Assembly (NCBI GenBank): GCA_047614005.1
Contig: JBLHIK010000003.1
Coordinates: 1 to 39,502, forward strand
DNA length: 39,502 bases
Source: Flavobacteriaceae bacterium
GTDB taxonomy: Bacteria; Patescibacteriota; Minisyncoccia; Phycocordibacterales; UBA1006
Reading direction: 5' to 3'
Below are positions 1,875 through 22,894 of this stretch, piece by piece. The notes under the pieces were generated by a model. That model saw only the letters and a list, made by a program, of their open reading frames with translations. It was not told the DNA's origin and did not search any database. Each line of letters begins with the position of its first letter. Position 1 is the stretch's first letter. The translations under genes and the position numbers were made by a program.

Positions 1875-3378
<1,504 letters not shown>

Positions 3379-9747: not shown

Positions 9748-9972
9748 ATGAATACAATTATTCCATGGCTACAGATAGTAGTTGTCGTTATCCTTGTCGT
9801 ATCAGTTCTCCTACAACAAACAGGCGCAGGCCTTGGAGGAGCTCTTGGCGGAGGATCAGATGCTGGTAGCAATTTCCACACACGACGAGGACCAGAAAAA
9901 GTACTATTCTATGTTACTATAGTAACAGGAATTATTTTTACACTGCTTTCTATTATGACGCTTTTTATATAG
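9748..9972 (+). CDS. secG: Preprotein translocase subunit SecG
   Basis: Two TM segments, LLQQ.GAGLGGALGG loop, TRRG.EK.L motif. Confidence 0.93.
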   Translation: MNTIIPWLQIVVVVILVVSVLLQQTGAGLGGALGGGSDAGSNFHTRRGPEKVLFYVTIVTGIIFTLLSIMTLFI

Positions 9973-10093
9973 TCTTCTAAAGATTATATCTATATAAGAA
10001 CGTACTGTAAGAATGTTACAGAGGTATTTCTTCTGTTTCCATGAAATAATATATTTTAATTTATCATTAATTTATCACATACTAACTTTATAT

Positions 10094-11812: not shown

Positions 11813-13741
11813 ATGACAGATTACAATAGGCAAAGAGAACAGAACAGTGGAGACGATACACTCAATAAAGCAATAAAGAAAATCATACCAAAGCAAGCAC
11901 GAACAGCAAAAGGTACGAGAAATCAACAGCAACAAAACCAGCAAGGACAATACAGCGGTGGTAATAAAAGAAACATAATAAAGACACCAAAGCCTGCTAA
12001 AAGGACTCCTATGCGTCGTCGAAGAAATCCTCTTCCACGAAAAGCAGTGTATAATGTGCCACCACTTGCTCCAAACACTATCCGAATAGTTCCTCTTGGA
12101 GGAACAGAGGAGATTGGGCGAAACATGACTCTTGTTGAATACAATGATCAAATTATTGTTATTGATGCAGGTATTGAATTTACTGATGCTGATACACCAG
12201 GAGTTGATTATATTATTCCAAACACAACATACCTTGAAGAGCGAAAACATCTCATCAAAGCTGTTGTGATCACTCATGGTCACCTCGACCACATCGGTGC
12301 ATTACCTTACCTTATAGAAAAAATAGGAAATCCTCCTATCTACTGTCGCGAATTTGGTGCTCTTCTAATCAAGCGTAAGCTAGCAGAATTTCCACAACTT
12401 CCCCCTATCAACATAAAGATTGTTGAAAAAGATGATGGTTCTCTCAAAATCACAGATGATCTATCTGTAACTTTCTTTGGACTTACTCACTCTATTCCTG
12501 ACTCTACAGGTGTGATCATAGAAACTCCTTTTGGAGATATTATATCTACAGGAGATGTGCGTGTTGAAAATATTGATGGAATACCAGTGCAAAAAGAAAT
12601 TGATCAGTATAAATTCCTTGCAGATCGAAATGTACTTCTCATGACTATGGACTCGACAGGTATTACTGATCCGGGATGGTCTCAATCAGAAGAACGCGTA
12701 CTTGATAACCTTGATGAGATTATTCGTACAGCAAAAGGACGTATCATACTTGCTACGTTTGCTTCTCAAGTAGAGCGTATTATTTCAATACTTGAAAGTG
12801 CTAAAAAGTATGGACGTGTTGTTGTCATAGAAGGACGAAGCATGAAGATGAATGTATCTATTGTAGAGGAGCTCAAGCTCACTGATCTTTCTCATATTAT
12901 TGAACCAGAATACATGGATGACTATCCACCTCACAAGCTCATTATGATCGCTACAGGTGGTCAAGGAGAAGAGTTTGCCGCGCTTTCACGTATAGCAAAC
13001 AAGACACACAAAAGCATCCGCCTCACCTCTCTCGATACAGTGATTCTTTCATCATCTATTATTCCAGGGAACGAAGCTGCTATTGATAAACTCAAAGACA
13101 ACCTTTATCGCTCTGACGCACATGTTCTTACATATATAGACTCTATGGTGCATGCATCAGGACACGGACGACGAGACGAGCTTGCATGGATCCATACACA
13201 GATACCTTACAAATACTTCATGCCAATCCATGGACATCATTATCGGCTCAAAATGCACAAAGAGCTTGCTATAAAGCTCGGAGCTCAAGAAGATAGAGTG
13301 ATCGTTCCAGACAACGGAAGTATTATTGAAATAAGCAACAATGGAGACACTATAATATTGAGAGATGAAAAAGTACCAGCTGAGAAAATAACAATCGATG
13401 GTACGAAGATCTCAGAGAGACAAGAGCTCGTACTTCGAGATCGAAAGATACTTGCAAATGACGGTATCTTCGTTATCGTTGCAACTCTCAACATGAAGAC
13501 AAAGAAACTCAAGAAATCTCCTGATATTATTTCTCGAGGATTTGTCTATCTCAAAGAAGAACGAGATCTTCTCAAAGATTCAAGAAATCTTGTAAAGAGA
13601 CTTGTAGAAGGTGCTGCTGAAAAAAGTAAACCAATAGACTTTGATAGACTCAAAGACGATATTACAAAGAAGCTCACTCAGTTCCTTTTCCAAAAAACTC
13701 AAAAGGAACCTCTTATCATTCCTGTGGTGATTGTTGCGTAA
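11813..13741 (+). CDS. rnj: Ribonuclease J
   Basis: PLGGTEEIGRNM, THGHLDHIG, THSIPD, TGD, HASGH, MPIHG and PDIISRGF motifs. Confidence 0.97.
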   Translation: MTDYNRQREQNSGDDTLNKAIKKIIPKQARTAKGTRNQQQQNQQGQYSGGNKRNIIKTPKPAKRTPMRRRRNPLPRKAVYNVPPLAPNTIRIVPLGGTEEIGRNMTLVEYNDQIIVIDAGIEFTDADTPGVDYIIPNTTYLEERKHLIKAVVITHGHLDHIGALPYLIEKIGNPPIYCREFGALLIKRKLAEFPQLPPINIKIVEKDDGSLKITDDLSVTFFGLTHSIPDSTGVIIETPFGDIISTGDVRVENIDGIPVQKEIDQYKFLADRNVLLMTMDSTGITDPGWSQSEERVLDNLDEIIRTAKGRIILATFASQVERIISILESAKKYGRVVVIEGRSMKMNVSIVEELKLTDLSHIIEPEYMDDYPPHKLIMIATGGQGEEFAALSRIANKTHKSIRLTSLDTVILSSSIIPGNEAAIDKLKDNLYRSDAHVLTYIDSMVHASGHGRRDELAWIHTQIPYKYFMPIHGHHYRLKMHKELAIKLGAQEDRVIVPDNGSIIEISNNGDTIILRDEKVPAEKITIDGTKISERQELVLRDRKILANDGIFVIVATLNMKTKKLKKSPDIISRGFVYLKEERDLLKDSRNLVKRLVEGAAEKSKPIDFDRLKDDITKKLTQFLFQKTQKEPLIIPVVIVA

Positions 13742-13816
13742 GACACAACACTCAAATAAATAAAAACGCTTTCCTTATGAACAAAAACAGAGCTTTCGCT
13801 CTGTTTTTGGTATCTG

Positions 13817-13964
13817 CGGGTCTTGGACTCGCTTATTCTCGTGGATATTTTCCTTCATGTATTCGGAAAATATCTCACTCCCTTAGGCTACACTCGGCCA
13901 TTCACCCTTCCTTTCAGTCAGGTCGGCTTCGCATGGCCTCGGTTTCGAGTCCTCGTGGACTCTC
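13817..13964 (-). repeat. tRNA-Trp-associated structured element, distal copy (variant core)
   Basis: Bounded by cgggtcttggactcg and ttcgagtcctcgtggac, which are inverted copies of the tRNA-Trp 3' end. Confidence 0.75.
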
Positions 13965-14010
13965 GCAAAAGCAAACGACACAAAGGCTCTGCCTTTGTGT
14001 CGTGCTTTTG

Positions 14011-14160
14011 CGGGTCTTGGACTCGGCCACTCTTATGGATATTTATTTCGTCTTGCAGGCTCATAAATATCTCATGCGTTCGGCCCCAAAAACTCATCTG
14101 CAATTTCGATAAAGTCTCATTGCAGTAAATTCGTTTTCTTTCGAGTCCTCGTGGACGCTC
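14011..14160 (-). repeat. tRNA-Trp-associated structured element, proximal copy
   Basis: Same tRNA-derived ends as 13817..13964. Core similar to the elements at 19540..19689 and 22270..22421. Confidence 0.8.
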
Positions 14161-14206
14161 GCAAAAGCAAACGACACAAAGGCTCTGCCTTTGTGTCGTG
14201 CTTTTG

Positions 14207-14277
14207 CGGGTCCACGAGGACTCGAACCTCGGACGTCGGTTTTGGAGACCGAAATTTTACCACTAAACTATAGACCC
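14207..14277 (-). tRNA. tRNA-Trp (CCA)
   Basis: GGGTCTATAGTTTAGTGGTAAAATTTCGGTCTCCAAAACCGACGTCCGAGGTTCGAGTCCTCGTGGACCCG folds as a cloverleaf. 3' CCA not encoded. Confidence 0.95.
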
Positions 14278-14343
14278 ATTATGAAGTTATAATTATAACT
14301 TCATAAATATAGCATATTTTATTCTTTTTCCTAAAAATAAAAG

Positions 14344-17052
14344 CTATTTTTTTACTATTTCTTTCTTCTTTGTTCTCTTTGTCTTTGTCTTTGTCTTTGT
14401 CTTTGTAAGATTATCTAACACCAGAGACTGTATACCTTTTTCTTCTTGAACTGATACGAGTACAGTATCTCCTTCTTTTATTTTATTTCCAATAAGATCA
14501 GTTGCTACTGGATTCAGTATTTCTGTCTGTATAAGACGAGCAAGAGGTCGTGCTCCGTAGTGAGGATCATATCCTTTCTTTGCAAGATACTCTGAAGCTT
14601 CCTTCGATAGAGTAAGAGTAATGCCTTTTTCTATAAGCATTTTTTCTATTTTTGCAATACGAATGTCTACAATACGAGCAATAGCTTCAGCAGAAAGAAT
14701 ATCGAATATTACTATTTCATCAATACGGTTGATAAATTCTGGACGGAAATGATCTTTGAGTGTTTCTTGTATCTTTGTTTTCGTTTGAGCATAGTCTTCT
14801 GCATCAGTATTCTCAGAAAAACCAAGGGTTTCCATTTTTTCTACATGCTGTGAACCAATATTACTCGTCATAATGATAATAGTATTTTTGAAGTTTACTA
14901 CGCGCCCTTTACTGTCCGTAAGTCGCCCATCATCGAGAACTTGAAGAAGCATATTAAAAACTTCTGGATGTGCCTTTTCTATCTCATCGAAAAGAACCAC
15001 TGAATATGGACGGTGTCGCACTTGTTCTGTGAGTTGCCCTGAGTCATCATGACCAATATATCCAGGAGGAGACCCTATGAGCTTTGAGATACTATGTGCT
15101 TCCATATACTCACTCATATCAATACGAATAAGAGCTTTTTCATCGTTGAAAATAAACTCTGCAAGGCTTTTTGTCAGTTCTGTTTTACCTACACCAGTCG
15201 GACCTAGAAGCAAGAATGAACCGATAGGTTTTTCAGGATCAGCTATACCAGCTCTCGAACGACGAACTACGTGTGCTATTTTCTCCAGAGCGTTATCTTG
15301 ACCGATGACACGCTTACGTAGAACATCTTCCATCTTCGCTAGTTTTGCTCGATCCTCTTCAATCATTTTTGCAAGTGGTATACCTGTCCACTTCGCAACC
15401 ACCTCAGCAATGTCTTCGCTGTTGATTTCCTCTTTCAAAATCCTTCTGTTTTTCTGAAGTTTTTTCAAACGATTCATTTTCTTGTCGAGTTCTTTTTTCA
15501 TTGCTGGTATTTTGCCATACCAGATTTCAGCAGCAGAACCAAGATCTACTTTTTGTTCTGCATTTTCTGCCTCGAGACGCAATGACTCAAGATTATGTTT
15601 TATCTCTCGAATACTCATGAGTATTTCTTTTTCATTTTTCCATTTTAGCTCGAGCTCTTTTGAATTTTCTTCAAGATTTGCAATATTGCTTACAATTTCC
15701 TTCATGCGATCTTGTGTCTTTTTATCTTTTTTAGTACTTGAATCAAGCTCTTGTTTGAGAGCTTGTCTTTCTATCTCAAGGCTCATAATCTTTCTATTTG
15801 CCTCTTCTAGAGCTGGCGGCTTGTTTTCAAGAGCCATGCGTAGTGAAGATGAAGCTTCGTCGATAAGATCAATAGCTTTATCTGGAAGGTAACGACTCGT
15901 GAGATATCTCTTTGAAAAAGTCACTGCAGACGTAATAGCGTCGTCAGTAATACGCACTCCGTGAAAGAGTTCATATTTCTCTTTTAATCCTCGTAGGATA
16001 GCTACAGCGTCTTCTACAGATGGTTCTTCTACGTAAACAGGTTGGAAACGTCGAGTAAGAGCAGGGTCTTTTTCTATATGCTTTTGATACTCACGCAAAG
16101 TAGTCGCGCCGATAGCACGTAGCTCGCCACGAGCAAGGGCAGGTTTGAGTAGATTTGCAGCATCAAGTGACCCATCAGTAGCACCAGCGCCGACAATGGT
16201 ATGTATTTCATCTATAAAAAGGATCATGTTACCATCTGCTTTTTCCATGTCTTTCAAAACCCCTTTGAGTCTTTCTTCAAATTCTCCTCGATATTTAGTA
16301 CCAGCTAAAAGCGAGCCGAGGTCAAGCGACACTATCTCCTTTCCCTTAAGAGATTCTGAGACATCATTTTTTGCGATACGCTGAGCGAGACCTTCTGCGA
16401 CAGCAGTCTTACCTACACCAGCTTCACCGATGAGAATAGGGTTGTTTTTTGTGCGTCGTGAGAGTATTTGCATAATACGCATGATTTCACTATCGCGTCC
16501 TATCACAGGGTCGAGCTTATCTTCTCGAGCAAGGTCGGTGAGATTGCGTGTGTATTTTGTTAGGAATCGATATTTTGGATTTGGCTTTTTTTCAGGAGAA
16601 GACTCTTCATCACGAAGTTCAGCGACTATCTCTAGTACCTTTTCTTTTTTAATACGGAAGCGAGAAAGGAGTTTTTGTACATCTCCTGGAACTTCCAAAA
16701 GAGAAATGAAAAGATGCTCTGTCGATACAAATTCATCTTTCATATATTCTGCCACCTTCCCTGCATTTTCTATTACCTCTGCAACATCAGGAGTAAGATA
16801 CATTTGATACGATGGCGCTGTGGCATCTTTTGTAATAGGCATGTCAATAGATTCCAAAATAGAGTCAGTAAGGTGTATTGTGTCCACTTCCAACTTATCT
16901 AGAATAGATAGTACGATAGACTCATCCTGCATCAAAAGTGCAGCAAAAAGATGAAAGGATGATACATGATTTTGGCCACGTTCAATAGCCAGCTCGTGAG
17001 AGCGTTTTATAGATTCTTTTGCTTTTGTTGTAAAATGATGAAATGGAATCAT
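14344..17052 (-). CDS. clpB: ATP-dependent chaperone ClpB
   Basis: Clp N-domain, two AAA modules ([16 protein letters not shown]) and a long coiled-coil middle domain. Confidence 0.93.
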
Positions 17053-17156
17053 ATGTATTTATATTAGTTAACTCCTCCTATAATAACACATTGCTATATT
17101 TACTTAAAGTTTTTCAAAAAGCAAGTACTTTTCCAGTTCATATAAAAAAATGAAGG

Positions 17157-17198
17157 AGGTCCGACCTACACATGCAGGAGGTCGGACCTCCTGCATGT
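17157..17198. repeat. Two AGGTC(C/G)GACCT palindromic repeats
   Basis: aggtccgacct followed by acatgcaggaggtc-g-gacctcctgcatgt. Confidence 0.8.
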
Positions 17199-17286
17199 TT
17201 TTTCTTTTTGACTTTATAAGAAAGAGGCGTATACTTTCATCTGTTCTTTTAATAAATCTCATTTAATTTAACTAAAGCTGGAAAAT

Positions 17287-17517
17287 ATGATTGATATAAC
17301 AGATTTCTTCTTTTTTATGAGCCTCTGCATTTTGATCTTTTTACTTATGAGATATCTCATAAAATCTATCACAATGTTTTCCAACATTATGATAGATTAT
17401 AAAAAAAATCAAAAAGATATTTTTGATACATGTGCCATTTGCATACTAATGGCACTTGGCATTATCATCGTACCTTTAATGGCACTCATAATACCTTTTT
17501 CTGGTGACATTAAATAA
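17287..17517 (+). CDS. Small two-TM hypothetical membrane protein
   Basis: Hydrophobic 76-aa ORF downstream of TTGACT-16bp-TATACT (~17208..17235). Confidence 0.55.
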   Translation: MIDITDFFFFMSLCILIFLLMRYLIKSITMFSNIMIDYKKNQKDIFDTCAICILMALGIIIVPLMALIIPFSGDIK

Positions 17518-17557
17518 ACTTGAATATAGTAACCTCACATACATAAGTATGATGAGG

Positions 17558-18751
17558 TTATTTTTTATACTTTCCTTTTATCTCTATGAGAGCTTTTATG
17601 AGAATATCAATATCTTTTTTTTCTGTCTCTCTTCCAAAAGAAAGACGTATTCCAGCTCTATTTTCCTCAGAGACACCAAGATAATGAAGAGGTGTTACTA
17701 TTTCATCGTGATTTACTTTACACGCTGAAGCTGTTGCTACATATATTCCATGTGCATCAAGCTCAAACAAAAGCACTTCGCTCTTCATATTTTCCATACT
17801 GAAAAAGAGAATATGCGGTGAGATATTCTCAATATCTCCATATGCTACAGCATTCACTAAAGAGAGCTTTTCTCTTATATACGTTTGTATTTCCTTTAAT
17901 CGATCATATTCCTTCTCTTGATTCTTCTTTATGTCTCGACATGCAATACGCATACCTTCAATAAGTGGAGTTGCAGGACTTCCCCCTCTCCTTTTTCTTT
18001 GATGACCCGTTGAAAATATAGTTGGATCTACATATACACCTTCTTTTATAAAGAGAATACCTATTCCTCTCGGTCCATATATTTTAGAGCCACCAAATGA
18101 AAGAAAGTCTACTCCTAGTTTTTTTACATCTATAGGAAGATAAGGGAATGCCTGTGCCGCGTCGGTAAATAAATATGGAAAAGAAGAAATAGATGTTCTG
18201 CTGTGTTGTTTTTTAAATTTACGAATTATTTTTGAAATCTCTGAAATAGATTGAACTGTACCAAGTTCATTTTGTACATAAATAATAGACACGAGAACAG
18301 TGTTTTCTTGTAGACTACTACGAACCTCTTCAGGTGATATATATCCATGCTCATTTACTGATATCCATGTAATCTCAACTCCGTATTTTTTCAGCTCATG
18401 AGCTGTTTCTATAGTAATACTATGCTCAAATTCAGAGAGTATGATGTGAGGATTTACGACACCTTTTTCGAGAGCATTTTCCACAACACCACGAAGAACA
18501 GTAACGATGTTTTCGGTACTACCTGATGTAAAAACTATTTCTCGCTCACTCGCTCCTATGTATTGTGATATTTCTTTTTGAGCATTTGTAATACACAGAG
18601 ATGCTTCTACTCCTTTTTTGTGCAAGGCAGAGGGATTTGCAAAACAGTTCTGCTCAATCTCCCTCATCGCATTTGAAACATTTTCGCTCACCGGAGTAGA
18701 CGAAGCATAGTCAAAATATATTTCTTTTTTCTTTTTTCTAAAAAAACTCAT
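17558..18751 (-). CDS. Cysteine desulfurase (IscS/NifS family, PLP-dependent)
   Basis: YFDYASSTP, ANPSALH, FTSGSTE, NELGTVQ, TDAAQ, SKIYGPRG and ASAC motifs. Start set at ATG 18751 because the longer ORF overlaps a tRNA. Confidence 0.9.
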   Translation of the reverse strand: MSFFRKKKKEIYFDYASSTPVSENVSNAMREIEQNCFANPSALHKKGVEASLCITNAQKEISQYIGASEREIVFTSGSTENIVTVLRGVVENALEKGVVNPHIILSEFEHSITIETAHELKKYGVEITWISVNEHGYISPEEVRSSLQENTVLVSIIYVQNELGTVQSISEISKIIRKFKKQHSRTSISSFPYLFTDAAQAFPYLPIDVKKLGVDFLSFGGSKIYGPRGIGILFIKEGVYVDPTIFSTGHQRKRRGGSPATPLIEGMRIACRDIKKNQEKEYDRLKEIQTYIREKLSLVNAVAYGDIENISPHILFFSMENMKSEVLLFELDAHGIYVATASACKVNHDEIVTPLHYLGVSEENRAGIRLSFGRETEKKDIDILIKALIEIKGKYKK

Positions 18752-18752
18752 G

Positions 18753-18836
18753 TGCCGAGAGCGGGAATTGAACCCGCACGCCATATATGGCAAGGGATTT
18801 TAAGTCCCTCGTGTCTACCTATTCCACCATCTCGGC
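18753..18836 (-). tRNA. tRNA-Leu (TAA)
   Basis: GCCGAGATGGTGGAATAGGTAGACACGAGGGACTTAAAATCCCT...GGTTCAATTCCCGCTCTCGGCA, with a long variable arm. Confidence 0.95.
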
Positions 18837-18926
18837 ATAAAAATATGTCTATATTTTTAATATGTTTAATACTATCAATATTTAGTTCAATAAACAAGAA
18901 AGCCTAAGTTTTTCAAAACTTAGGCT

Positions 18927-19325
18927 TTAGTATTTTTTTCTTGTTTGATTTTTGCCGTAATTTTTTACGAACAAAATGACAAGAATTAAAAATAAAAAAA
19001 TAGAATATAACATTACTACAGAAAAATATGTTATTTTGAAAAGATTAAATACATACGTTATTGTAATAATATTTGGCATGAAACATAGTGCTGCTACAGA
19101 CGCAACAGCTAAAGATCTTTTCATGTCATATGTTCTAAAATTTCTTGTAATAAAATAAATCATTTGTACAAAAAAAGCAGTACAAATAATAAATAAAAAC
19201 AACAATAAATAGTTACGAGGTATTAAAACTGGAGCAAAAAACCTTATCCCAGCACTAACCAAAGATACTAAAAACAAAACCAACACAATAACACATCTCT
19301 TTTGTGCACTCATTTTCTTTTTCAT
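18927..19325 (-). CDS. Four-TM hypothetical membrane protein
   Basis: Very AT-rich hydrophobic ORF with an upstream TTGAGT..TATAAT and a downstream hairpin (18898..18927). Confidence 0.65.
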   Translation of the reverse strand: MKKKMSAQKRCVIVLVLFLVSLVSAGIRFFAPVLIPRNYLLLFLFIICTAFFVQMIYFITRNFRTYDMKRSLAVASVAALCFMPNIITITYVFNLFKITYFSVVMLYSIFLFLILVILFVKNYGKNQTRKKY

Positions 19326-19432
19326 GTTTGAGAATTTTTAAGGTTCACAATATACAGCATGTATATATAAAAAGTATTATACTCTTTTTATATAAAAACT
19401 CAATAGAAAGAGCTTTGCTCTTTGTGTCTATT

Positions 19433-19537
19433 TTAAAACAACAAAAAATACACTTAGGTGTCTTTTCTTAAAACAACAAAAAACACACTTAGGTGTCTTT
19501 TCTTAAAACAACAAAAAACACACTTAGGTGTCTTTTT
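19433..19537. repeat. Three tandem 35-bp repeats of the tRNA-Cys 3' trailer hairpin
   Basis: ttaaaacaacaaaaaa(c/t)acacttaggtgtctttt starts at 19433, 19468 and 19503, with another copy at ~19731..19766. Confidence 0.9.
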
Positions 19538-19539
19538 TG

Positions 19540-19689
19540 AGGTACGGGGATTCGGCCACCGTTTTGGAGATTTTTACGAATTAGAAATTCGTAAAAATAT
19601 CTCAAAACCTCGACCCCGTCGCCTCATCTGCAATTTCGCCAAAGGCTCAATGCAGTAAATTCGGCTTTCTTCGAATCCCGCCTGTACCA
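19540..19689 (-). repeat. tRNA-Cys-associated structured element
   Basis: Bounded by aggtacggggattcg and ttcgaatcccgcctgtacc, inverted copies of the tRNA-Cys 3' end. Core shared with the Trp and Leu elements. Confidence 0.8.
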
Positions 19690-19767
19690 AGAAAATAAAG
19701 AACCCAAAGCATAGCTTTGGGTTCTTTATTTTAAAACAACAAAAAACACACTTAGGTGTCTTTTTTG

Positions 19768-19839
19768 AGGTACGGGCGGGATTCGAACCCGCGCATGTTG
19801 GTTTTGCAGACCAATGTGTTACCACTTCACCACCGTACC
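19768..19839 (-). tRNA. tRNA-Cys (GCA)
   Basis: GGTACGGTGGTGAAGTGGTAACACATTGGTCTGCAAAACCAACATGCGCGGGTTCGAATCCCGCCCGTACCT cloverleaf with U73 discriminator. Confidence 0.95.
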
Positions 19840-19852
19840 GCCTCCTTTTTTA

Positions 19853-20194
19853 TTATTCTTCTTGAGAGACACCTTCTTGTATAGAAATTTCTTCTATACG
19901 TTGACGATTCACCTCTCCATAATCAACACTGAAATCAAAGAAAGGGACACGTCGCGTGTTAGTATTTTTCATGATAGCTGAACGCAAATCATCTCTTTTG
20001 CGTTGCAAGAATGCCAACACTTCTTCTTCCTTTTCTCTTGGCAAAACTGTAACATAAATAGTAGCTCTTTTAAAGTCACGAGACATGTTGATATTTGAAA
20101 CAGTTATAAGAGAATCCCTGTTGGACTCTTGAATAATGAAGTTTGCTATCACTTCACGTAAAACTTCTTTCATTTGTAGTACTCTATCGTGCAT
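19853..20194 (-). CDS. rbfA: Ribosome-binding factor A
   Basis: ITV...MSRD.K.A.IYVT and RRVP.F.F..D motifs; directly downstream of infB. Confidence 0.9.
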   Translation of the reverse strand: MHDRVLQMKEVLREVIANFIIQESNRDSLITVSNINMSRDFKRATIYVTVLPREKEEEVLAFLQRKRDDLRSAIMKNTNTRRVPFFDFSVDYGEVNRQRIEEISIQEGVSQEE

Positions 20195-20205
20195 AATTAT
20201 ATATA

Positions 20206-21705
20206 TTATCTTATTTCTGTCGTATAAAAAGCCAAAACATCTCCTGCCTCCATGTCGGCATCAGCCATCACCTCCATTCCACACTCATCCCCTTTTTCCA
20301 GCTTGTCGGTGCTTTGTTTTGCGCGCTGTATGCCTTCTATTTTCCCTTTTCCTACTTTTTCATCATTGCGAATAATATCAAACTTAGATTTGAGAACTGC
20401 AATACCGTCTTGCATGCGACCACCTATCACTTGTCGCTTTTTTTGATTATTAAATATTGCAAGAACTTTCAAAGACCCAATATCATCACGTCTCTCTTTG
20501 AGAGGTTTCTTTTCAAGAAGTATTTTCTGTAGCCATTCTTCAAGCTCATAGATAATAGAAAAGTTTTTCATTGTTGCGCCAACGGCTTCTTGAGCAGCTT
20601 GCGCATTCGCATCTATATTACTATTAAAACCTACTATTACTGCATTACTATCAGCAGCAGCGAGATGTACGTCATTTTCACTAATAGCTCCTACATCAGC
20701 AACAAGCACCTTGTAGCATATCTCTTCATGAGCAACACGCTCTACTATGCCTTGCACTGCCTGAACAGAACCAATAGTATCAGCACGTATCACAAGAGGA
20801 ATACATACATCACCTGTCACATTTGAATGCAATGGAGCAGTACCCTCATTAAAAGCGCGATATTCTGTCACACACTCCTCCATCCCCTTTTTATCATCAG
20901 CTGATGAGAAAAGTGATCCAGCTACTGGCACTTCAGAAAATCCAGTGATTTGGACAGGAGTAGAAAATGTAGCTTCTTTAATAGCTTTTCCATTAAAATC
21001 TTCAAATATTCTTACTTTTGCATATGATTCATTTTGAGCAATAGCAAACATTCCACTCTTTAGTGTTCCATCTTTTATAATCATAGTAGCTGACACTCCT
21101 CTTTTTGCATCACGATGTGACTCTATAATAAAACCAGTTGCAGGAATATCTGGATTCCCTGTGAGCTCTTCGAGCTCAGCAACCAACAGCAACACATCCA
21201 AAAGATCATCTATTCCCGTTCCTTCTTTTGCTGAAATAGCAGTTACAGGAATATCTCCTCCATATCCTTCAACATACACTTCATTTTCCATAAGTGTTTG
21301 TTTTGTCCGGTCTATGTTTGCATTTGGTTTATCAATCTTATTAATAGCAACCACAAAAGGTATTTTTGCTTTTTTGATAGCATCGAGAGCTTCTTTTGTT
21401 TGCTCTTTTACTCCGTCTTCTGCAGACACCACAAGAATAGCAATATCAGCAGCACCAGCACCTGATGCACGCATAAGAGAAAAAGCCTCATGTCCAGGAG
21501 TATCGAGAAATGTAACTTTCTTTTTCTCTCCTTCGTGTTCGTGCACTACCTCATAAGCACTGATTGCTTGAGTAATACCACCAGCTTCACCATCTACGAT
21601 ATTAGTCTTTCTTATATAGTCTAAAAGTGTTGATTTGCCATGATCAACATGTCCCATAACAACCACTACAGGTGAGCGTGGTATTTTTACCATTTCTTTA
21701 TTCAT
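20206..21705 (-). CDS. infB: Translation initiation factor IF-2 (short, no N-terminal domain)
   Basis: RSPVVVVMGHVDHGKST, GEAGGITQ, FLDTPGHEAF and NKID motifs. Confidence 0.97.
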   Translation of the reverse strand: MNKEMVKIPRSPVVVVMGHVDHGKSTLLDYIRKTNIVDGEAGGITQAISAYEVVHEHEGEKKKVTFLDTPGHEAFSLMRASGAGAADIAILVVSAEDGVKEQTKEALDAIKKAKIPFVVAINKIDKPNANIDRTKQTLMENEVYVEGYGGDIPVTAISAKEGTGIDDLLDVLLLVAELEELTGNPDIPATGFIIESHRDAKRGVSATMIIKDGTLKSGMFAIAQNESYAKVRIFEDFNGKAIKEATFSTPVQITGFSEVPVAGSLFSSADDKKGMEECVTEYRAFNEGTAPLHSNVTGDVCIPLVIRADTIGSVQAVQGIVERVAHEEICYKVLVADVGAISENDVHLAAADSNAVIVGFNSNIDANAQAAQEAVGATMKNFSIIYELEEWLQKILLEKKPLKERRDDIGSLKVLAIFNNQKKRQVIGGRMQDGIAVLKSKFDIIRNDEKVGKGKIEGIQRAKQSTDKLEKGDECGMEVMADADMEAGDVLAFYTTEIR

Positions 21706-22147
21706 GGAATGCGAGAGCTAAGGCTTTTTTTTCTTCTACAGAGAGTTCTACAGAACAAATACCTCCTTCTACCTCTTTTGAAAATACACTTGTTCTCTCT
21801 CTAGAGTAAAGGCTCGATATTATACATCCATCTTGATTATCATTAAGAAGAGCAAGAGCAAAACTTTGTTTTGCTCCAGTATCAGAAAAAGCATCAAACC
21901 GAACAAGGCCTTTCTTTGAAAAGGCATTGTCAGCTCTATTTTCAAGCACTTTTACTTGAGAGAGGAGTGACATGTGTGCTGTTTTGAGATCTTTGTTTTC
22001 AGAAAGAAGAGTGGCAAAAACCGATTCCATGCTCTCCCCGTTCTTTCCTTTCATAAAAGCAGATATTTTTATCCATAAAAAAACCACAGCGGCAAAGCTG
22101 AGTATTGAAAGTGAAGCTATGAGATATATGATAATTTGATTTGACAT
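21698..22147 (-). CDS. DUF4446-like membrane-anchored protein
   Basis: N-terminal TM, coiled coil, then GLVRFDAF.D.G..QSFALALL...DG.IISSLYSRE. Confidence 0.8.
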   Translation of the reverse strand: MSNQIIIYLIASLSILSFAAVVFLWIKISAFMKGKNGESMESVFATLLSENKDLKTAHMSLLSQVKVLENRADNAFSKKGLVRFDAFSDTGAKQSFALALLNDNQDGCIISSLYSRERTSVFSKEVEGGICSVELSVEEKKALALAFHE

Positions 22148-22186
22148 AAGTAATTAAAATAAGAAAAAAGTAAGTTGTGTATTTTC

Positions 22187-22239
22187 GAGGTCCGACCTCA
22201 TCTTCAGAGGTCGGACCTCATCTTCAAAGGTCGGACCTC
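22187..22239. repeat. Three tandem AGGTC(C/G)GACCTC palindromes, 20-bp period
   Basis: gaggtccgacctcatcttca-gaggtcggacctcatcttca-aaggtcggacctc. Confidence 0.85.
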
Positions 22240-22269
22240 AAAAATGTTCATTCGAAATTGTTGTTTATG

Positions 22270-22421
22270 TGCGTGAGAGAGGACTTGGTCACCGCTACGG
22301 ATTCAGAGTTCGTCCTGAGGACTCCTCTTCATCTCGCAGCCTCGACCCCGCTGCTTCGCCTGTAATTTCGCAAAAAGCTCATTACAGTGAGCGAAACTTT
22401 TTTCAAGCCCTCTCTTACGTA
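22270..22421 (-). repeat. tRNA-Leu(TAG)-associated structured element
   Basis: Bounded by tgcgtgagagaggacttg and ttcaagccctctcttacgta, inverted copies of the tRNA-Leu 3' end. Core has ctcgaccccg...ctgtaatttcg..ctcattacagt. Confidence 0.8.
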
Positions 22422-22469
22422 AAAAACATACAATCTAAACACTGTCGTATTTAAATTGTTGTTTTTATG

Positions 22470-22551
22470 TGCGTGAGAGAGGACTTGAACCTCCACACCT
22501 TGCGGCACCAGCTCCTAAGGCTGGCGTGTCTACCAATTTCACCACTCACGC
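22470..22551 (-). tRNA. tRNA-Leu (TAG)
   Basis: GCGTGAGTGGTGAAATTGGTAGACACGCCAGCCTTAGGAGCTGGTGCCGCAAGGTGTGGAGGTTCAAGTCCTCTCTCACGCA. Confidence 0.95.
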
Positions 22552-22612
22552 ATATGTCTCAAAGACATTAGAGAGTATAGTATATTTGAGATATTTTACA
22601 AGACAAAAAATT

Positions 22613-22894
22613 TTATTTAATAAAGAGTTTACAAATAGCAGTGTCGCTACCATCTTTTTCTGCCATAGACATGTTTACCTCTTCTTTCATATCATTATTT
22701 TCAAGATATTCTTGTATTTCACCTTTCATTTTCAAAGCTTTTTGTATATCTTCAACTACCATACCACCCTCTGTTCCTTTAGTCATTTTTAGTATTTTTT
22801 CCACAAAAGCAGGCATGTCTTGCGCACTAATCTCAGGTACCACTTGTTCTTGCTTCAGATTCATTTCCATATTCATTCCCATTTTCATATTCAT
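22613..22894 (-). CDS. Hypothetical Met-rich protein (93 aa)
   Basis: ORF co-oriented with and closely following the MYG1-like gene. Confidence 0.6.
   Translation of the reverse strand: MNMKMGMNMEMNLKQEQVVPEISAQDMPAFVEKILKMTKGTEGGMVVEDIQKALKMKGEIQEYLENNDMKEEVNMSMAEKDGSDTAICKLFIK

What the first reader, a model, noticed from the sequence alone, without database searches (positions are those of the whole stretch)
13817..22421. Family of ~150-nt structured elements whose ends are copied from each neighbouring tRNA
Seen in sequence: elements lie ~50-80 nt past the 3' ends of tRNA-Trp (14011..14160, plus a variant at 13817..13964), tRNA-Cys (19540..19689) and tRNA-Leu-TAG (22270..22421). Their termini are inverted copies of the adjacent tRNA's T-loop-to-acceptor segment, so the ends differ at each locus. 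The cores are homologous. On the + strand they read gg(c/t)cac, then hairpin 1 (atgga..tctcat / gttttgga..tctcaaaac / gctacgga..tctcgcagc), then tcg(a/g)cccc, then hairpin 2 (ctgcaatttcg-N7-ctca(t/a)tgcagt / ctgtaatttcg-N7-ctcattacagt). The stems show compensatory changes. Junctions fall in the TTC(G/A)A T-loop. Established: the tRNA T-loop is a common crossover site for tyrosine integrases. Inference: this may be a non-autonomous mobile element or recombination site that rebuilds its ends from the target tRNA. Alternatively it is a co-transcribed RNA whose antisense arm could pair with the pre-tRNA 3' half to control maturation or act as a decoy. I cannot assign it to any named family.
Basis: partly seen in the sequence, partly recalled or inferred. 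Interest (0 to 1): 0.9.

Follow-up and report, generated by a model that had tools for sequence, protein, structure and literature searches.

The report
Structured cassettes behind tRNA genes
Behind many tRNA genes of this tiny bacterium sits a folded 150-250-base element flanked by one backward and one forward copy of that tRNA's last 19 bases; it matches no described family and probably spreads between tRNA genes.

Summary
On the tRNA strand (window minus strand) each unit reads: tRNA, a terminator-like hairpin (T1), an inverted copy (a') of tRNA positions 56-74, a three-way-junction core, a direct copy (a*) of 56-74. Junctions lie in the T loop.

A covariance model found 15 matches in this 598-kb genome. 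12 of 33 tRNAs and the tmRNA carry units. It also hit 17 of 60 relatives, 3 of 150 class genomes and 0 of 150 phylum genomes. 36 of 40 matches lie at most 450 nt behind a same-strand tRNA or tmRNA.

Covariation is strong (90% of cells paired against 66% shuffled). G-U outnumbers A-C 84 to 21, so the tRNA strand folds, not the + strand. No Rfam family matches.

Two loci share a 97%-identical core that stops at the T-loop junctions, while the arms stay locus-specific. Where a and a* differ (5 loci), a' follows the tRNA.

No reverse transcriptase, TnpB or IS110 gene was found. There is one Xer-like recombinase per genome, and the HUH gene does not co-occur.

Best reading (0.5): non-autonomous cassettes that enter and swap at tRNA 3' ends by hairpin-driven template switching. 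Main rival (0.3): a functional RNA. No RNA data exist.

The parts
14206..14277 (-). tRNA-Trp (CCA). Its last 19 nt (14206-14224, positions C56 to 74) are the source 'a' of both arms.
   Evidence: ARAGORN; Rfam tRNA 66.3 bits; coordinates of 'a'
14162..14205 (-). T1 hairpin, copy 1. It is terminator-like and bidirectional (A tract, 13-bp stem, T tract), and lies between the tRNA and element A.
   Evidence: Terminator-like site 14199-14171 on the - strand; identical second copy located
14010..14161 (-). Element Trp-A (core type A). Inverted arm a' 14140-14161, hairpin P2 14098-14125, long hairpin P3 14035-14075, direct arm a* 14010-14025 (carries an internal deletion relative to the tRNA).
   Evidence: R1 match 159.1 bits; fold; sub-part coordinates; arm comparison
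13966..14009 (-). T1 hairpin, copy 2, identical to copy 1.
13816..13965 (-). Its arms share the same derived changes as those of Trp-A.
   Evidence: R1 match 30.8 bits, E 1.3e-6
13782..13808 (-). Different hairpin with a T tract after the last direct arm; the likely native terminator (T2) of the tRNA-Trp locus.
   Evidence: Sequence read; coordinates. The scan did not flag it.
19767..19839 (-). tRNA-Cys (GCA); source 'a' is 19767-19785.
19692..19766 (-). Spacer made of the native flank f (19731-19766) followed by T1-type hairpin 19694-19730.
   Evidence: The scan did not flag this hairpin as a terminator.
19539..19691 (-). Element Cys (core type A). a' 19670-19688 (one mismatch to the tRNA), a* 19539-19554 (short deletion).
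   Evidence: R1 148.7 bits
19450..19538 (-). Flank f repeated in tandem after a*. Full copy at 19503-19538, with further copies whose cores lie at 19485-19499 and 19450-19464. The direct repeat here is therefore a + f, about 55 nt.
22469..22551 (-). tRNA-Leu (TAG); source 'a' is 22469-22487. Promoter-like sites lie upstream at 22606-22574 on the - strand.
22424..22468 (-). 45-nt spacer with no predicted terminator hairpin, so co-transcription with the tRNA is plausible at this locus.
22269..22423 (-). Element Leu-TAG (core type A). a' 22402-22419, a* 22269-22287 (19 of 19 identical to the tRNA, and the repeat runs about 16 nt further into the flank).
   Evidence: R1 158.6 bits; most stable fold, -68.7 kcal/mol, z -6.95

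Best explanation
These are non-autonomous, structured DNA cassettes that live at the 3' ends of tRNA and tmRNA genes in a lineage of Patescibacteria.

Anatomy (shown), read on the tRNA strand:
- the tRNA, ending in 'a' (positions 56-74);
- a T1 hairpin of a conserved type;
- a', the reverse complement of a;
- a three-way-junction core with two or three hairpins that carry tandem G-A motifs;
- a*, a direct copy of a;
- usually a second, different terminator.

Both core boundaries lie in T-loop-derived heptamers.

Mechanism (inferred):
1. Cores enter and are exchanged between such sites by copy-choice or recombination at the near-universal, partly palindromic T-loop sequence.
2. The inverted arm is written, and rewritten, from the adjacent tRNA by hairpin-primed template switching across T1. 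This is the process known for quasipalindrome correction.
3. The 19-nt or longer direct repeat, together with the inverted repeats, allows precise loss by replication slippage. That loss leaves an intact tRNA.

The host replisome or a still unidentified trans-acting enzyme does the work. The element encodes nothing.
For: Association with tRNAs:
- R1 gives 15 matches in G000.
- 36 of 40 matches in 35 loci lie at most 450 nt behind a same-strand tRNA or tmRNA, and 33 of 40 lie within 100 nt. The usual gap is 41-48 nt.
- 12 of 33 tRNAs in G000 have both arms. The tmRNA does too. tmRNA loci are also occupied in two relatives.

Patchy spread:
- 14 of 36 genomes of the family, 3 of 24 other families of the order, 3 of 150 in the class sample and 0 of 150 in the phylum sample carry matches.
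- MAGs labelled Paceibacterota and Saccharibacteria carry the same architecture.
- The orthologous tRNA-Gly(tcc) locus in genus g2 is occupied in 2 genomes, empty in 3 and indeterminate in 1.

Exchange of cores:
- The cores at tRNA-Gln and tRNA-Arg(cct) differ at 5 of about 180 columns. Identity stops at the T-loop junctions, while T1, a' and a* differ.
- Core types do not follow tRNA identity: 26 label changes against 25.7 in shuffles. The same tRNA carries different types in different genomes.

Arrays and remnants:
- Tandem units occur at Trp, Ser(gga), Asp and the C7 contig end.
- Lys(ttt) has a solo a-T1-a'.
- Leu(gag) has a deletion remnant.

Origin of the arms:
- a' is a complement of the tRNA 3' strand, not a copy of the 5' strand. 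At the Trp U6-G67 wobble it carries the base complementary to G67.
- In the 5 G000 loci where a and a* differ (Trp, Cys, Tyr, Gln, Met), a' follows the tRNA. At Gln it matches 19 of 19.
- Direct repeats always start at C56. They run from 19 nt to about 89 nt (a, a+flank, a+T1, a+T1+a').
- T1-type hairpins are nearly confined to element sites: 8 of 10 distinct places.

Precedent for the process: template switching that creates, perfects and expands inverted repeats is described in PMC8794818, PMC7202029 and PMC13100816. I saw only their titles and abstract starts in the listing.
Against: - No enzyme was found. RVT_1, the TnpB Zn-ribbon domain and IS110 DEDD were not found in G000, which is 90.9% complete.
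- Only one tyrosine recombinase is present in the element-rich genomes.
- The RAYT-like HUH gene is present in 4 of 17 element-positive and 13 of 43 element-negative relatives.
- No clean filled/empty pair with conserved flanks on both sides was obtained. Insertion boundaries and target duplication are therefore inferred, not seen.
- The 97% core identity could come from gene conversion between old copies rather than from movement.
- The tree of cores is poorly resolved: 4 of 37 inner branches are starred. Clustering by genome is weak: 26 changes against 28.1 in shuffles, minimum 25.
- The elaborate, strongly covarying three-way junction with conserved unpaired bases is more than a passive DNA hairpin needs.
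- The G-U excess fits RNA as well as single-stranded DNA.
- In relatives a* is often 19 of 19 identical to the tRNA while a' has decayed to exact runs of 8-14 nt. This asymmetry needs an extra assumption: conversion of a*, or selection against long perfect palindromes.
- 4 of 40 matches have no recognised tRNA upstream.
Confidence: 0.5

Rival explanations
1. It is a functional non-coding RNA made by read-through from the tRNA promoter or from its own start. The stem a':a* replicates the acceptor and T stems of the cognate tRNA (a minihelix with the core in place of the T loop). RNase P, RNase Z and the CCA enzyme could therefore trim it. It could then act as a tRNA-specific mimic, decoy or antisense partner of the tRNA 3' half.
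For: - Covariation is strong and unpaired blocks are conserved over 40 sequences.
- G-U outnumbers A-C 84 to 21 on the tRNA-sense strand, and one G-U pair is kept in 27 of 40 sequences.
- Three tandem G-A motifs are typical of protein-binding RNA (the attribution is recalled).
- No terminator is predicted between tRNA-Leu(TAG) and its element.
- a* is kept identical to the tRNA in most relatives.
- RNase P RNA is present in the genome.
- Folding the read-through transcript gives a very stable alternative. The tRNA 5' strand pairs with a*, and the tRNA's own 3' end pairs with a' (z -8.96 and -7.18).
Against: - A terminator-like hairpin sits in front of most units, and no promoter-like site is found for the elements.
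- The distribution is very patchy even within a genus.
- Several unrelated core types, tandem arrays, solos and remnants exist.
- The antisense arm decays in relatives.
- In 5 G000 loci a' and a* no longer match each other.
- Expression is untested.
Confidence: 0.3
2. They are scars or miniature derivatives of integrase-driven integrative elements or prophages. These insert in the T loop of tRNA and tmRNA genes and carry a replacement 3' end, as cis-mobilisable elements do.
For: - A direct repeat running from the T loop to the 3' end of the tRNA gene, and use of tmRNA as well, is the classic footprint of tyrosine-integrase insertion (recalled: Williams 2002).
- The repeats are seen.
- Relatives with more than one integrase are somewhat more frequent among carriers: 6 of 17 against 7 of 43.
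Against: - The six genomes richest in elements have only the single Xer-type recombinase.
- No phage or integrase gene adjoins any locus examined.
- One viral-contig pattern scan found no element.
- An integrase element has one fixed attP. Here near-identical cores sit at different tRNAs with arms matching each.
- An inverted copy of the target is not produced by such recombination.
- The structure is conserved by compensatory change.
Confidence: 0.1
3. They are single-strand DNA transposon derivatives (IS200/IS605 PATE or REPIN type) moved by the RAYT-like Y1 HUH protein encoded on contig C2.
For: - Folding of one strand, hairpin-rich ends, and a GCGAAGC-type mini-hairpin motif in T1 loops and in P2 (the stability of that DNA hairpin is recalled).
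- G000 has a 195-aa Y1_Tnp protein.
Against: - That protein family is present in 4 of 17 carriers and 13 of 43 non-carriers.
- The termini are not constant.
- No TnpB was found.
- A different palindromic repeat in the genome is a better candidate partner for that protein.
Confidence: 0.05

Closest known systems
Tyrosine-integrase attachment sites in tRNA/tmRNA genes and integrase-less cis-mobilisable elements (CIMEs)
   Same: The insertion junction lies in the T loop. A direct repeat runs from the T loop to the 3' end, so the tRNA stays intact. tmRNA is also used. Units can pile up in tandem.
   Different: There is no integrase beyond the universal Xer-type one. Unit size is 150-250 nt. An inverted copy of the target is present. 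The same core sits at many different tRNAs. The core fold is kept by covariation.
MITEs and REPINs (non-autonomous inverted-repeat elements)
   Same: Small, non-coding, multi-copy and hairpin-forming, with patchy distribution and mosaic modules.
   Different: The terminal repeats are not constant. Only the inner 7-9 nt (T-loop-derived) are shared, and the rest copies the local tRNA. There is no fixed-length target duplication and no matching transposase or RAYT.
Integron cassette arrays with folded attC sites, and single-strand phage attP that mimics a chromosomal site (CTX-phi type)
   Same: Cassettes are separated by imperfect palindromes whose structure rather than sequence is kept. A folded single strand recreates a duplex identical to the target. 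Cassettes exchange at short conserved core sites.
   Different: No IntI-type integrase is present. The cassettes carry no ORF. The anchor is a tRNA rather than attI or dif. The junction motif is the T loop, not the GTTRRRY core site (recalled).
Quasipalindrome template-switch mutagenesis and inverted-repeat expansion
   Same: It explains, with no enzyme, how an arm can be rewritten in one step to match the sequence across a hairpin, and why repeats flanking hairpins are lost precisely.
   Different: It is known as a mutational process at single sites, not as the propagation route of a conserved multi-copy element family.
tRNA-like minihelix RNAs processed by tRNA enzymes (for example mascRNA-type 3' modules and viral tRNA-like structures)
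   Same: The closing stem reproduces the acceptor and T stems and the discriminator of a real tRNA.
   Different: The T loop is replaced by a three-way junction of over 100 nt. The mimic is specific to the neighbouring tRNA. Expression and processing are unknown.

Membership tests
Any Rfam 15 family | Match at or above the family's gathering score | tested here: not met
   (whole window) found only 16S rRNA and 5 tRNAs. One search (E up to 10, 13700-22700) gave only far sub-threshold hairpin hits over the elements or T1, for example mir-5881 at 28 bits against a gathering score of 87. on relatives' loci gave the same result.
MITE | Constant terminal inverted repeats shared by all copies | tested here: not met
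   The arms differ at each locus and match the local tRNA. Only the T-loop-derived inner bases are shared.
MITE | Target-site duplication of fixed length | tested here: not met
   The direct repeat always starts at C56 but runs 19, about 30, 36, 55, 63 or about 89 nt.
REPIN / IS200-IS605 PATE | Co-occurrence with a RAYT or TnpA Y1 HUH gene | tested here: not met
   The homologue of P0001 is present in 4 of 17 carriers and 13 of 43 non-carriers among 60 relatives.
IS605 omega/reRNA | TnpB or IscB nuclease in the genome | tested here: not met
   PF07282 was not found in G000, which is 90.9% complete. IscB was not searched.
IS110 bridge RNA | DEDD recombinase next to, or in the same genome as, the RNA | tested here: not met
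   PF01548 was not found in G000.
Integrase-type integrative element or CIME | Direct repeat from the T loop to the tRNA 3' end flanking the insert | tested here: met
   A 19-nt repeat from C56 is present in most loci.
Integrase-type integrative element or CIME | A cognate integrase in the element or in the genome | tested here: not met
   One Phage_integrase match in G000 and in the other five element-rich genomes. No integrase gene was seen in the sequence around any locus examined.
Integron cassette / attC | IntI integrase and GTTRRRY / RYYYAAC core sites at the palindrome ends | tested here: inconclusive
   Only a single tyrosine recombinase per genome was found, and its subtype was not determined. 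The junction motif is the T loop, which does not fit the recalled consensus at its fourth base. The consensus is recalled, not from a tool.
Group II intron (class that inserts after terminators) | Domain V/VI RNA and a reverse transcriptase | tested here: not met
   No Rfam intron match. RVT_1 was not found in G000. The size of 150-250 nt is too small.
Self-cleaving ribozymes (hammerhead, twister, hatchet, pistol, HDV-like) | Match to the family model | tested here: not met
   None appears among the 35 matches at E up to 10. The tandem G-A next to a short stem resembles hammerhead domain 2 only superficially (recalled consensus).
tRNA-like minihelix RNA | Transcribed and trimmed by RNase P, RNase Z and the CCA enzyme | not testable with these tools
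   No RNA run is listed. The stem geometry fits by construction.

The most novel reading that the evidence does not exclude
This would be a new kind of mobile genetic cassette that needs no enzyme of its own. A conserved three-way-junction fold, bounded by T-loop look-alikes, makes the host replisome switch templates at tRNA T loops. The cassette is thereby copied behind any tRNA or tmRNA gene. Its inverted arm is written from the target by hairpin-primed synthesis. It can also be lost precisely. The read-through RNA would in addition form a strand-swapped tRNA whose 3' strand is supplied by the distal copy. That would amount to a bacterial insertion in the T loop with two interchangeable 3' ends.
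Probability: 0.25. Interest if true: 0.9.

Novelty: categorically new. Interest (0 to 1): 0.8.

Why it matters
If the reading holds, up to 40% of the tRNA genes of some ultra-small bacteria carry a passenger built partly from the tRNA itself. That would be a new route of DNA spread in genomes that have almost no transposases.

It would also explain the repeated assembly breaks at tRNA loci in such MAGs. In one search the source-run contigs break at these repeats.

It gives a natural system for studying hairpin-primed template switching.

If the RNA reading is right instead, it is a new widespread RNA class that mimics each tRNA's acceptor arm. That would bear on tRNA processing or charging in organisms with minimal RNA machinery.

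Either way, the family deserves a curated RNA/DNA model so that annotators stop calling ORFs across it. ORF listing one search finds spurious ORFs of 101-111 aa over the Trp units.

Tried and rejected
- RNA evidence. The look-up of sequencing runs listed two DNA runs and no RNA holder. Laying their contigs showed contigs breaking at the repeated hairpins. It showed no empty site or informative joint, so it says nothing on expression or excision.
- Genome-collection pattern scan. Of the 80 loci listed, I tested only 7 with R1. I picked them because their titles named Patescibacteria-type or unclassified bacteria. 2 of the 7 matched. The other 73 were not examined and are probably chance hits in GC-rich genomes.
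- Viral contigs. One pattern scan gave one stretch with no R1 match and no tRNA. One exact pattern is a weak search.
- Enzyme hunt. RVT_1, Y1_Tnp, Phage_integrase, the TnpB Zn-ribbon domain and IS110 DEDD were searched in G000. P0001 and Phage_integrase were also searched in 60 relatives. None tracks the element. Serine recombinases, DDE transposases, IscB, Cas1 and primase-polymerases were not searched.
- Clean filled/empty pairs. In genus g2, synteny downstream of tRNA-Gly is not kept. In genus g9 the His and tmRNA loci are occupied in both genomes, and the Trp locus of G008 holds a divergent tRNA-Trp (79% identity) with another gene behind it.
- Tree of cores. It is too poorly resolved to tell movement from conversion.
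- Ideas rejected:
  - Hammerhead-like or kink-turn readings of the G-A motifs: the geometry does not fit the recalled consensus and there is no Rfam hit.
  - A primer-binding site for a retroelement: the arm lacks the CCA complement and no RT was found.
  - A protein-coding reading: compensatory changes, no conserved frame.
  - Assembly artefact: the same architecture appears in many independent assemblies.
- Literature. Five full-text searches listed nothing describing such elements. I read only listings, no paper body. Supplements are closed.

Full report
WHAT IS THERE

The window is one whole contig (C3) of a 598-kb, 30-contig, 35% GC genome that is 90.9% complete. Its five tRNA genes all lie on the minus strand. 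The three close copies are 77% identical and all four are 70% identical.

Read on the tRNA strand, every unit has the same order:
- the tRNA, whose last 19 nt I call 'a' (T-loop C56 to one base past the discriminator);
- a spacer of about 45 nt that is usually a hairpin with an A tract before it and a T tract after it (T1);
- an inverted copy a';
- a core;
- a direct copy a*.

At tRNA-Trp two units follow each other, each preceded by an identical 44-nt hairpin. The scan calls that hairpin terminator-like on the minus strand. At tRNA-Leu(TAG) no terminator is predicted in the spacer. At tRNA-Cys the hairpin is of the T1 type, but the scan did not flag it.

IS IT MORE THAN CHANCE, AND WHICH STRAND FOLDS

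All copies fold better than their shuffles on both strands. Leu and Cys are more stable on the minus strand: -68.7 against -50.9 kcal/mol, and -54.3 against -50.6 kcal/mol.

A covariance model from the three close copies (R1) gave 15 matches in the genome. It gave 40 matches in 35 loci of this genome and its relatives. On that alignment:
- 90.0% of cells are paired, against 66.3% in shuffles and 27-45% when partners are slid.
- 38 of 41 pairs show changes on both sides.
- A G-U pair at the foot of the long hairpin is G-U in 27, A-U in 9 and G-C in 2 of 40 sequences.
- Over all stems, G-U cells number 84 and A-C cells 21. Without the conserved pair the counts are 57 and 21.

The alignment was fitted to a model built on that strand, which favours it somewhat. 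The asymmetry is nonetheless large. The folded strand is therefore the tRNA-sense strand, as RNA or as single-stranded DNA.

No Rfam family matches at gathering score or at E up to 10.

HOW BIG THE FAMILY IS

In this genome 12 of 33 tRNAs have both an inverted copy about 46-84 nt downstream and a direct copy further on. In addition:
- The tmRNA has the same arrangement with another core type.
- tRNA-Leu(gag) keeps only T1, the last 15 nt of the long hairpin and a decayed a*.
- tRNA-Lys(ttt) has a, T1 and a 17-of-17 inverted arm but no core.
- Two more units sit at the end of contig C7.

There are at least four core types. Most share the 3' hairpin, and modules are mosaic.

Among relatives:
- 14 of 36 genomes of the same family and 3 of 24 other families of the order have R1 matches.
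- An even sample of the class gave 3 of 150, and of the phylum 0 of 150. Both used stricter filters.
- Two named MAGs found by the pattern scan, one labelled Paceibacterota and one Saccharibacteria, carry the same architecture.
- R1 misses decayed or other-type units. An example is the G016 tRNA-Gly locus. These counts are therefore lower bounds.

Of the 40 matches:
- 33 lie within 100 nt and 36 within 450 nt downstream of a same-strand tRNA or tmRNA.
- Two follow tmRNA.
- Four have no recognised tRNA upstream. Two of those follow an unknown conserved sequence that itself ends in a T-loop-like motif.

WHAT THE ARMS TELL

The direct repeat starts at C56 in essentially every locus. It runs for 19 nt in many loci and further in others:
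- about 36 nt at Leu(TAG);
- about 55 nt at Cys (a plus the native flank);
- 63 nt at a tRNA-His of G008 (a plus T1);
- about 89 nt at a tRNA-Tyr of G026, where the order is tRNA, [a-T1-a'], core, [a-T1-a'].

After a* there is usually a different hairpin, probably the native terminator.

T1 hairpins at different loci, and even in distant lineages, share their apex. A regular-expression search finds them almost only beside elements, at 8 of 10 distinct places.

The inverted arm is a true complement of the tRNA's 3' strand. At the U6-G67 wobble of tRNA-Trp it carries the complement of G67, not a copy of U6.

In the five loci of this genome where a and a* differ (Trp, Cys, Tyr, Gln, Met), a' follows the tRNA and not a*. 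At Gln it is 19 of 19, while a* looks like the end of another Gln-type tRNA.

In relatives the pattern is reversed. a* is often 19 of 19, while a' keeps only 8-14 exact bases.

WHAT MOVES

The loci behind tRNA-Gln and tRNA-Arg(cct) share a core that differs at 5 of about 180 columns. The identity begins and ends abruptly at the T-loop-derived junction bases. T1, a' and a* are locus-specific. The Tyr and Cys units share a nearly identical 5' module but differ in the long hairpin.

Core types do not follow tRNA identity. The same tRNA carries different types in different genomes. On a weak tree, tRNA labels change as often as shuffled labels: 26 against 25.7.

In genus g2 the orthologous tRNA-Gly(tcc) site is occupied in two genomes, empty in three and cut by a contig end in one.

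Taken together, the cores behave as cassettes that are gained, lost and exchanged at sites bounded by T-loop look-alikes.

WHO COULD DO IT

G000 has no RVT_1, TnpB Zn-ribbon or IS110 DEDD match. It has one tyrosine recombinase. Nearly every relative also has one, including the five other genomes richest in elements. Extra integrases occur in 6 of 17 carriers and 7 of 43 non-carriers.

G000 also has a 195-aa Y1 HUH (RAYT-like) protein. Its family is in 4 of 17 carriers and 13 of 43 non-carriers, so it does not track the element. A viral-contig pattern scan found nothing.

MECHANISM I COMMIT TO (confidence 0.5; steps marked)

- Shown: the anatomy, the T-loop junctions, locus-specific arms, core-only recent identity, patchy occupancy, and the absence of a correlated enzyme among those searched.
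- Inferred:
  1. Cores are copied or converted between sites by template switching or recombination at the conserved, partly palindromic T-loop sequence.
  2. a' is written from the adjacent tRNA when the nascent strand folds back on T1. This is the same process that perfects and expands quasipalindromes (titles and abstract starts of PMC8794818, PMC7202029 and PMC13100816 in the listing; mechanism otherwise recalled).
  3. The direct repeat, together with the hairpins, permits precise loss by slippage and leaves an intact tRNA.
  4. Long perfect palindromes are then selected against, which would explain the decay of a'.

The model accounts for the solo a-T1-a' unit, the tandem arrays and the variable repeat length. 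It does not explain why the core fold is so elaborate, or why T1 has a conserved apex.

MAIN RIVAL (confidence 0.3)

The element could be a functional RNA. By construction a':a* reproduces the acceptor and T stems of the cognate tRNA, so the unit is a minihelix with a three-way junction in place of the T loop. RNase P RNA is present in the genome.

Folding the read-through transcript of two loci predicts a strand-swapped form. In it the tRNA 5' strand pairs with a*, and the tRNA's own 3' end pairs with a'.

The covariation, the G-U bias and the conserved single-stranded blocks fit this reading. The terminator in front, the patchiness, the multiple core types and the decaying antisense arm count against a housekeeping role. 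No RNA data exist to test it.

The two readings are not exclusive. A selfish cassette may well be transcribed.

COMPARISON WITH KNOWN SYSTEMS

The element works most like an integrase-less cassette at a tRNA attachment site. In having palindromic separators it resembles integron arrays. It fails the defining tests of MITEs, REPINs, IS605 and IS110 guide RNAs, group II introns, integrase elements and every Rfam family (see the membership table).

I found nothing in print in five full-text searches, for which I read only the listings.

VERDICT

This is a real, sizeable and previously undescribed family. Interest 0.8.

Noticed in passing
window 22175-22240 (+ strand reading), and G000 C15 about 70-115 nt downstream of tRNA-Ala (9950-10023, - strand): A different short palindromic repeat with a GGTCGGACC-type core occurs three times in tandem downstream of the Leu(TAG) element and as an inverted pair behind tRNA-Ala. 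It looks REP-like and may be the real partner of the RAYT-like gene.
   Followed up: no
G000 C2:20907-21491 (- strand), locus L044/L046: A 195-aa Y1 HUH (IS200-like / RAYT-like) protein with an HUH motif, Pfam Y1_Tnp 30.3 bits. It is present in 17 of 60 relatives, mostly outside the window's family.
   Followed up: partly
window 19450-19538; G000 C7 downstream of tRNA-Val(gac) 12796-12869: Terminator-like units of about 35 nt are repeated three to four times in tandem behind the Cys element and behind tRNA-Val(gac).
   Followed up: no
G000 C8:18113-18488 and the following 260 nt: The tmRNA gene is followed by a T1-type hairpin, an inverted copy of its 3' end, a core of another type and a direct copy. 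The tmRNA genes of G008 and G020 carry R1-type units.
   Followed up: partly
L020 and L031 (about 60-260 nt upstream of the R1 match); G000 C13 about 18330-18390: An unknown conserved GC-rich hairpin-forming sequence is shared by two relatives. It ends in a T-loop-like motif. A similar sequence, in the opposite orientation, lies about 1 kb from tRNA-Ser(tga) in G000. There is no Rfam match.
   Followed up: partly
G000 C11, about 300-340 nt downstream of tRNA-Gln (16961-17032): A decayed copy of the last third of tRNA-Gln (from the anticodon-stem 3' strand to the 3' end) lies beyond the element. It suggests an older, different duplication or insertion event.
   Followed up: no
L038:2331-2448 (genome G016): A LOOT RNA (Rfam RF03000, 73.4 bits) lies about 700 nt from one of the elements that has no recognised tRNA upstream.
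   Followed up: no
window 13777-14128: Mechanical ORFs of 111 and 101 aa run across the two Trp units on the + strand. They are likely to be miscalled as genes.
   Followed up: no
window 1884-3378 (- strand): A complete 16S rRNA gene (Rfam 1354 bits) of ordinary length, so it has no large insertion.
   Followed up: no
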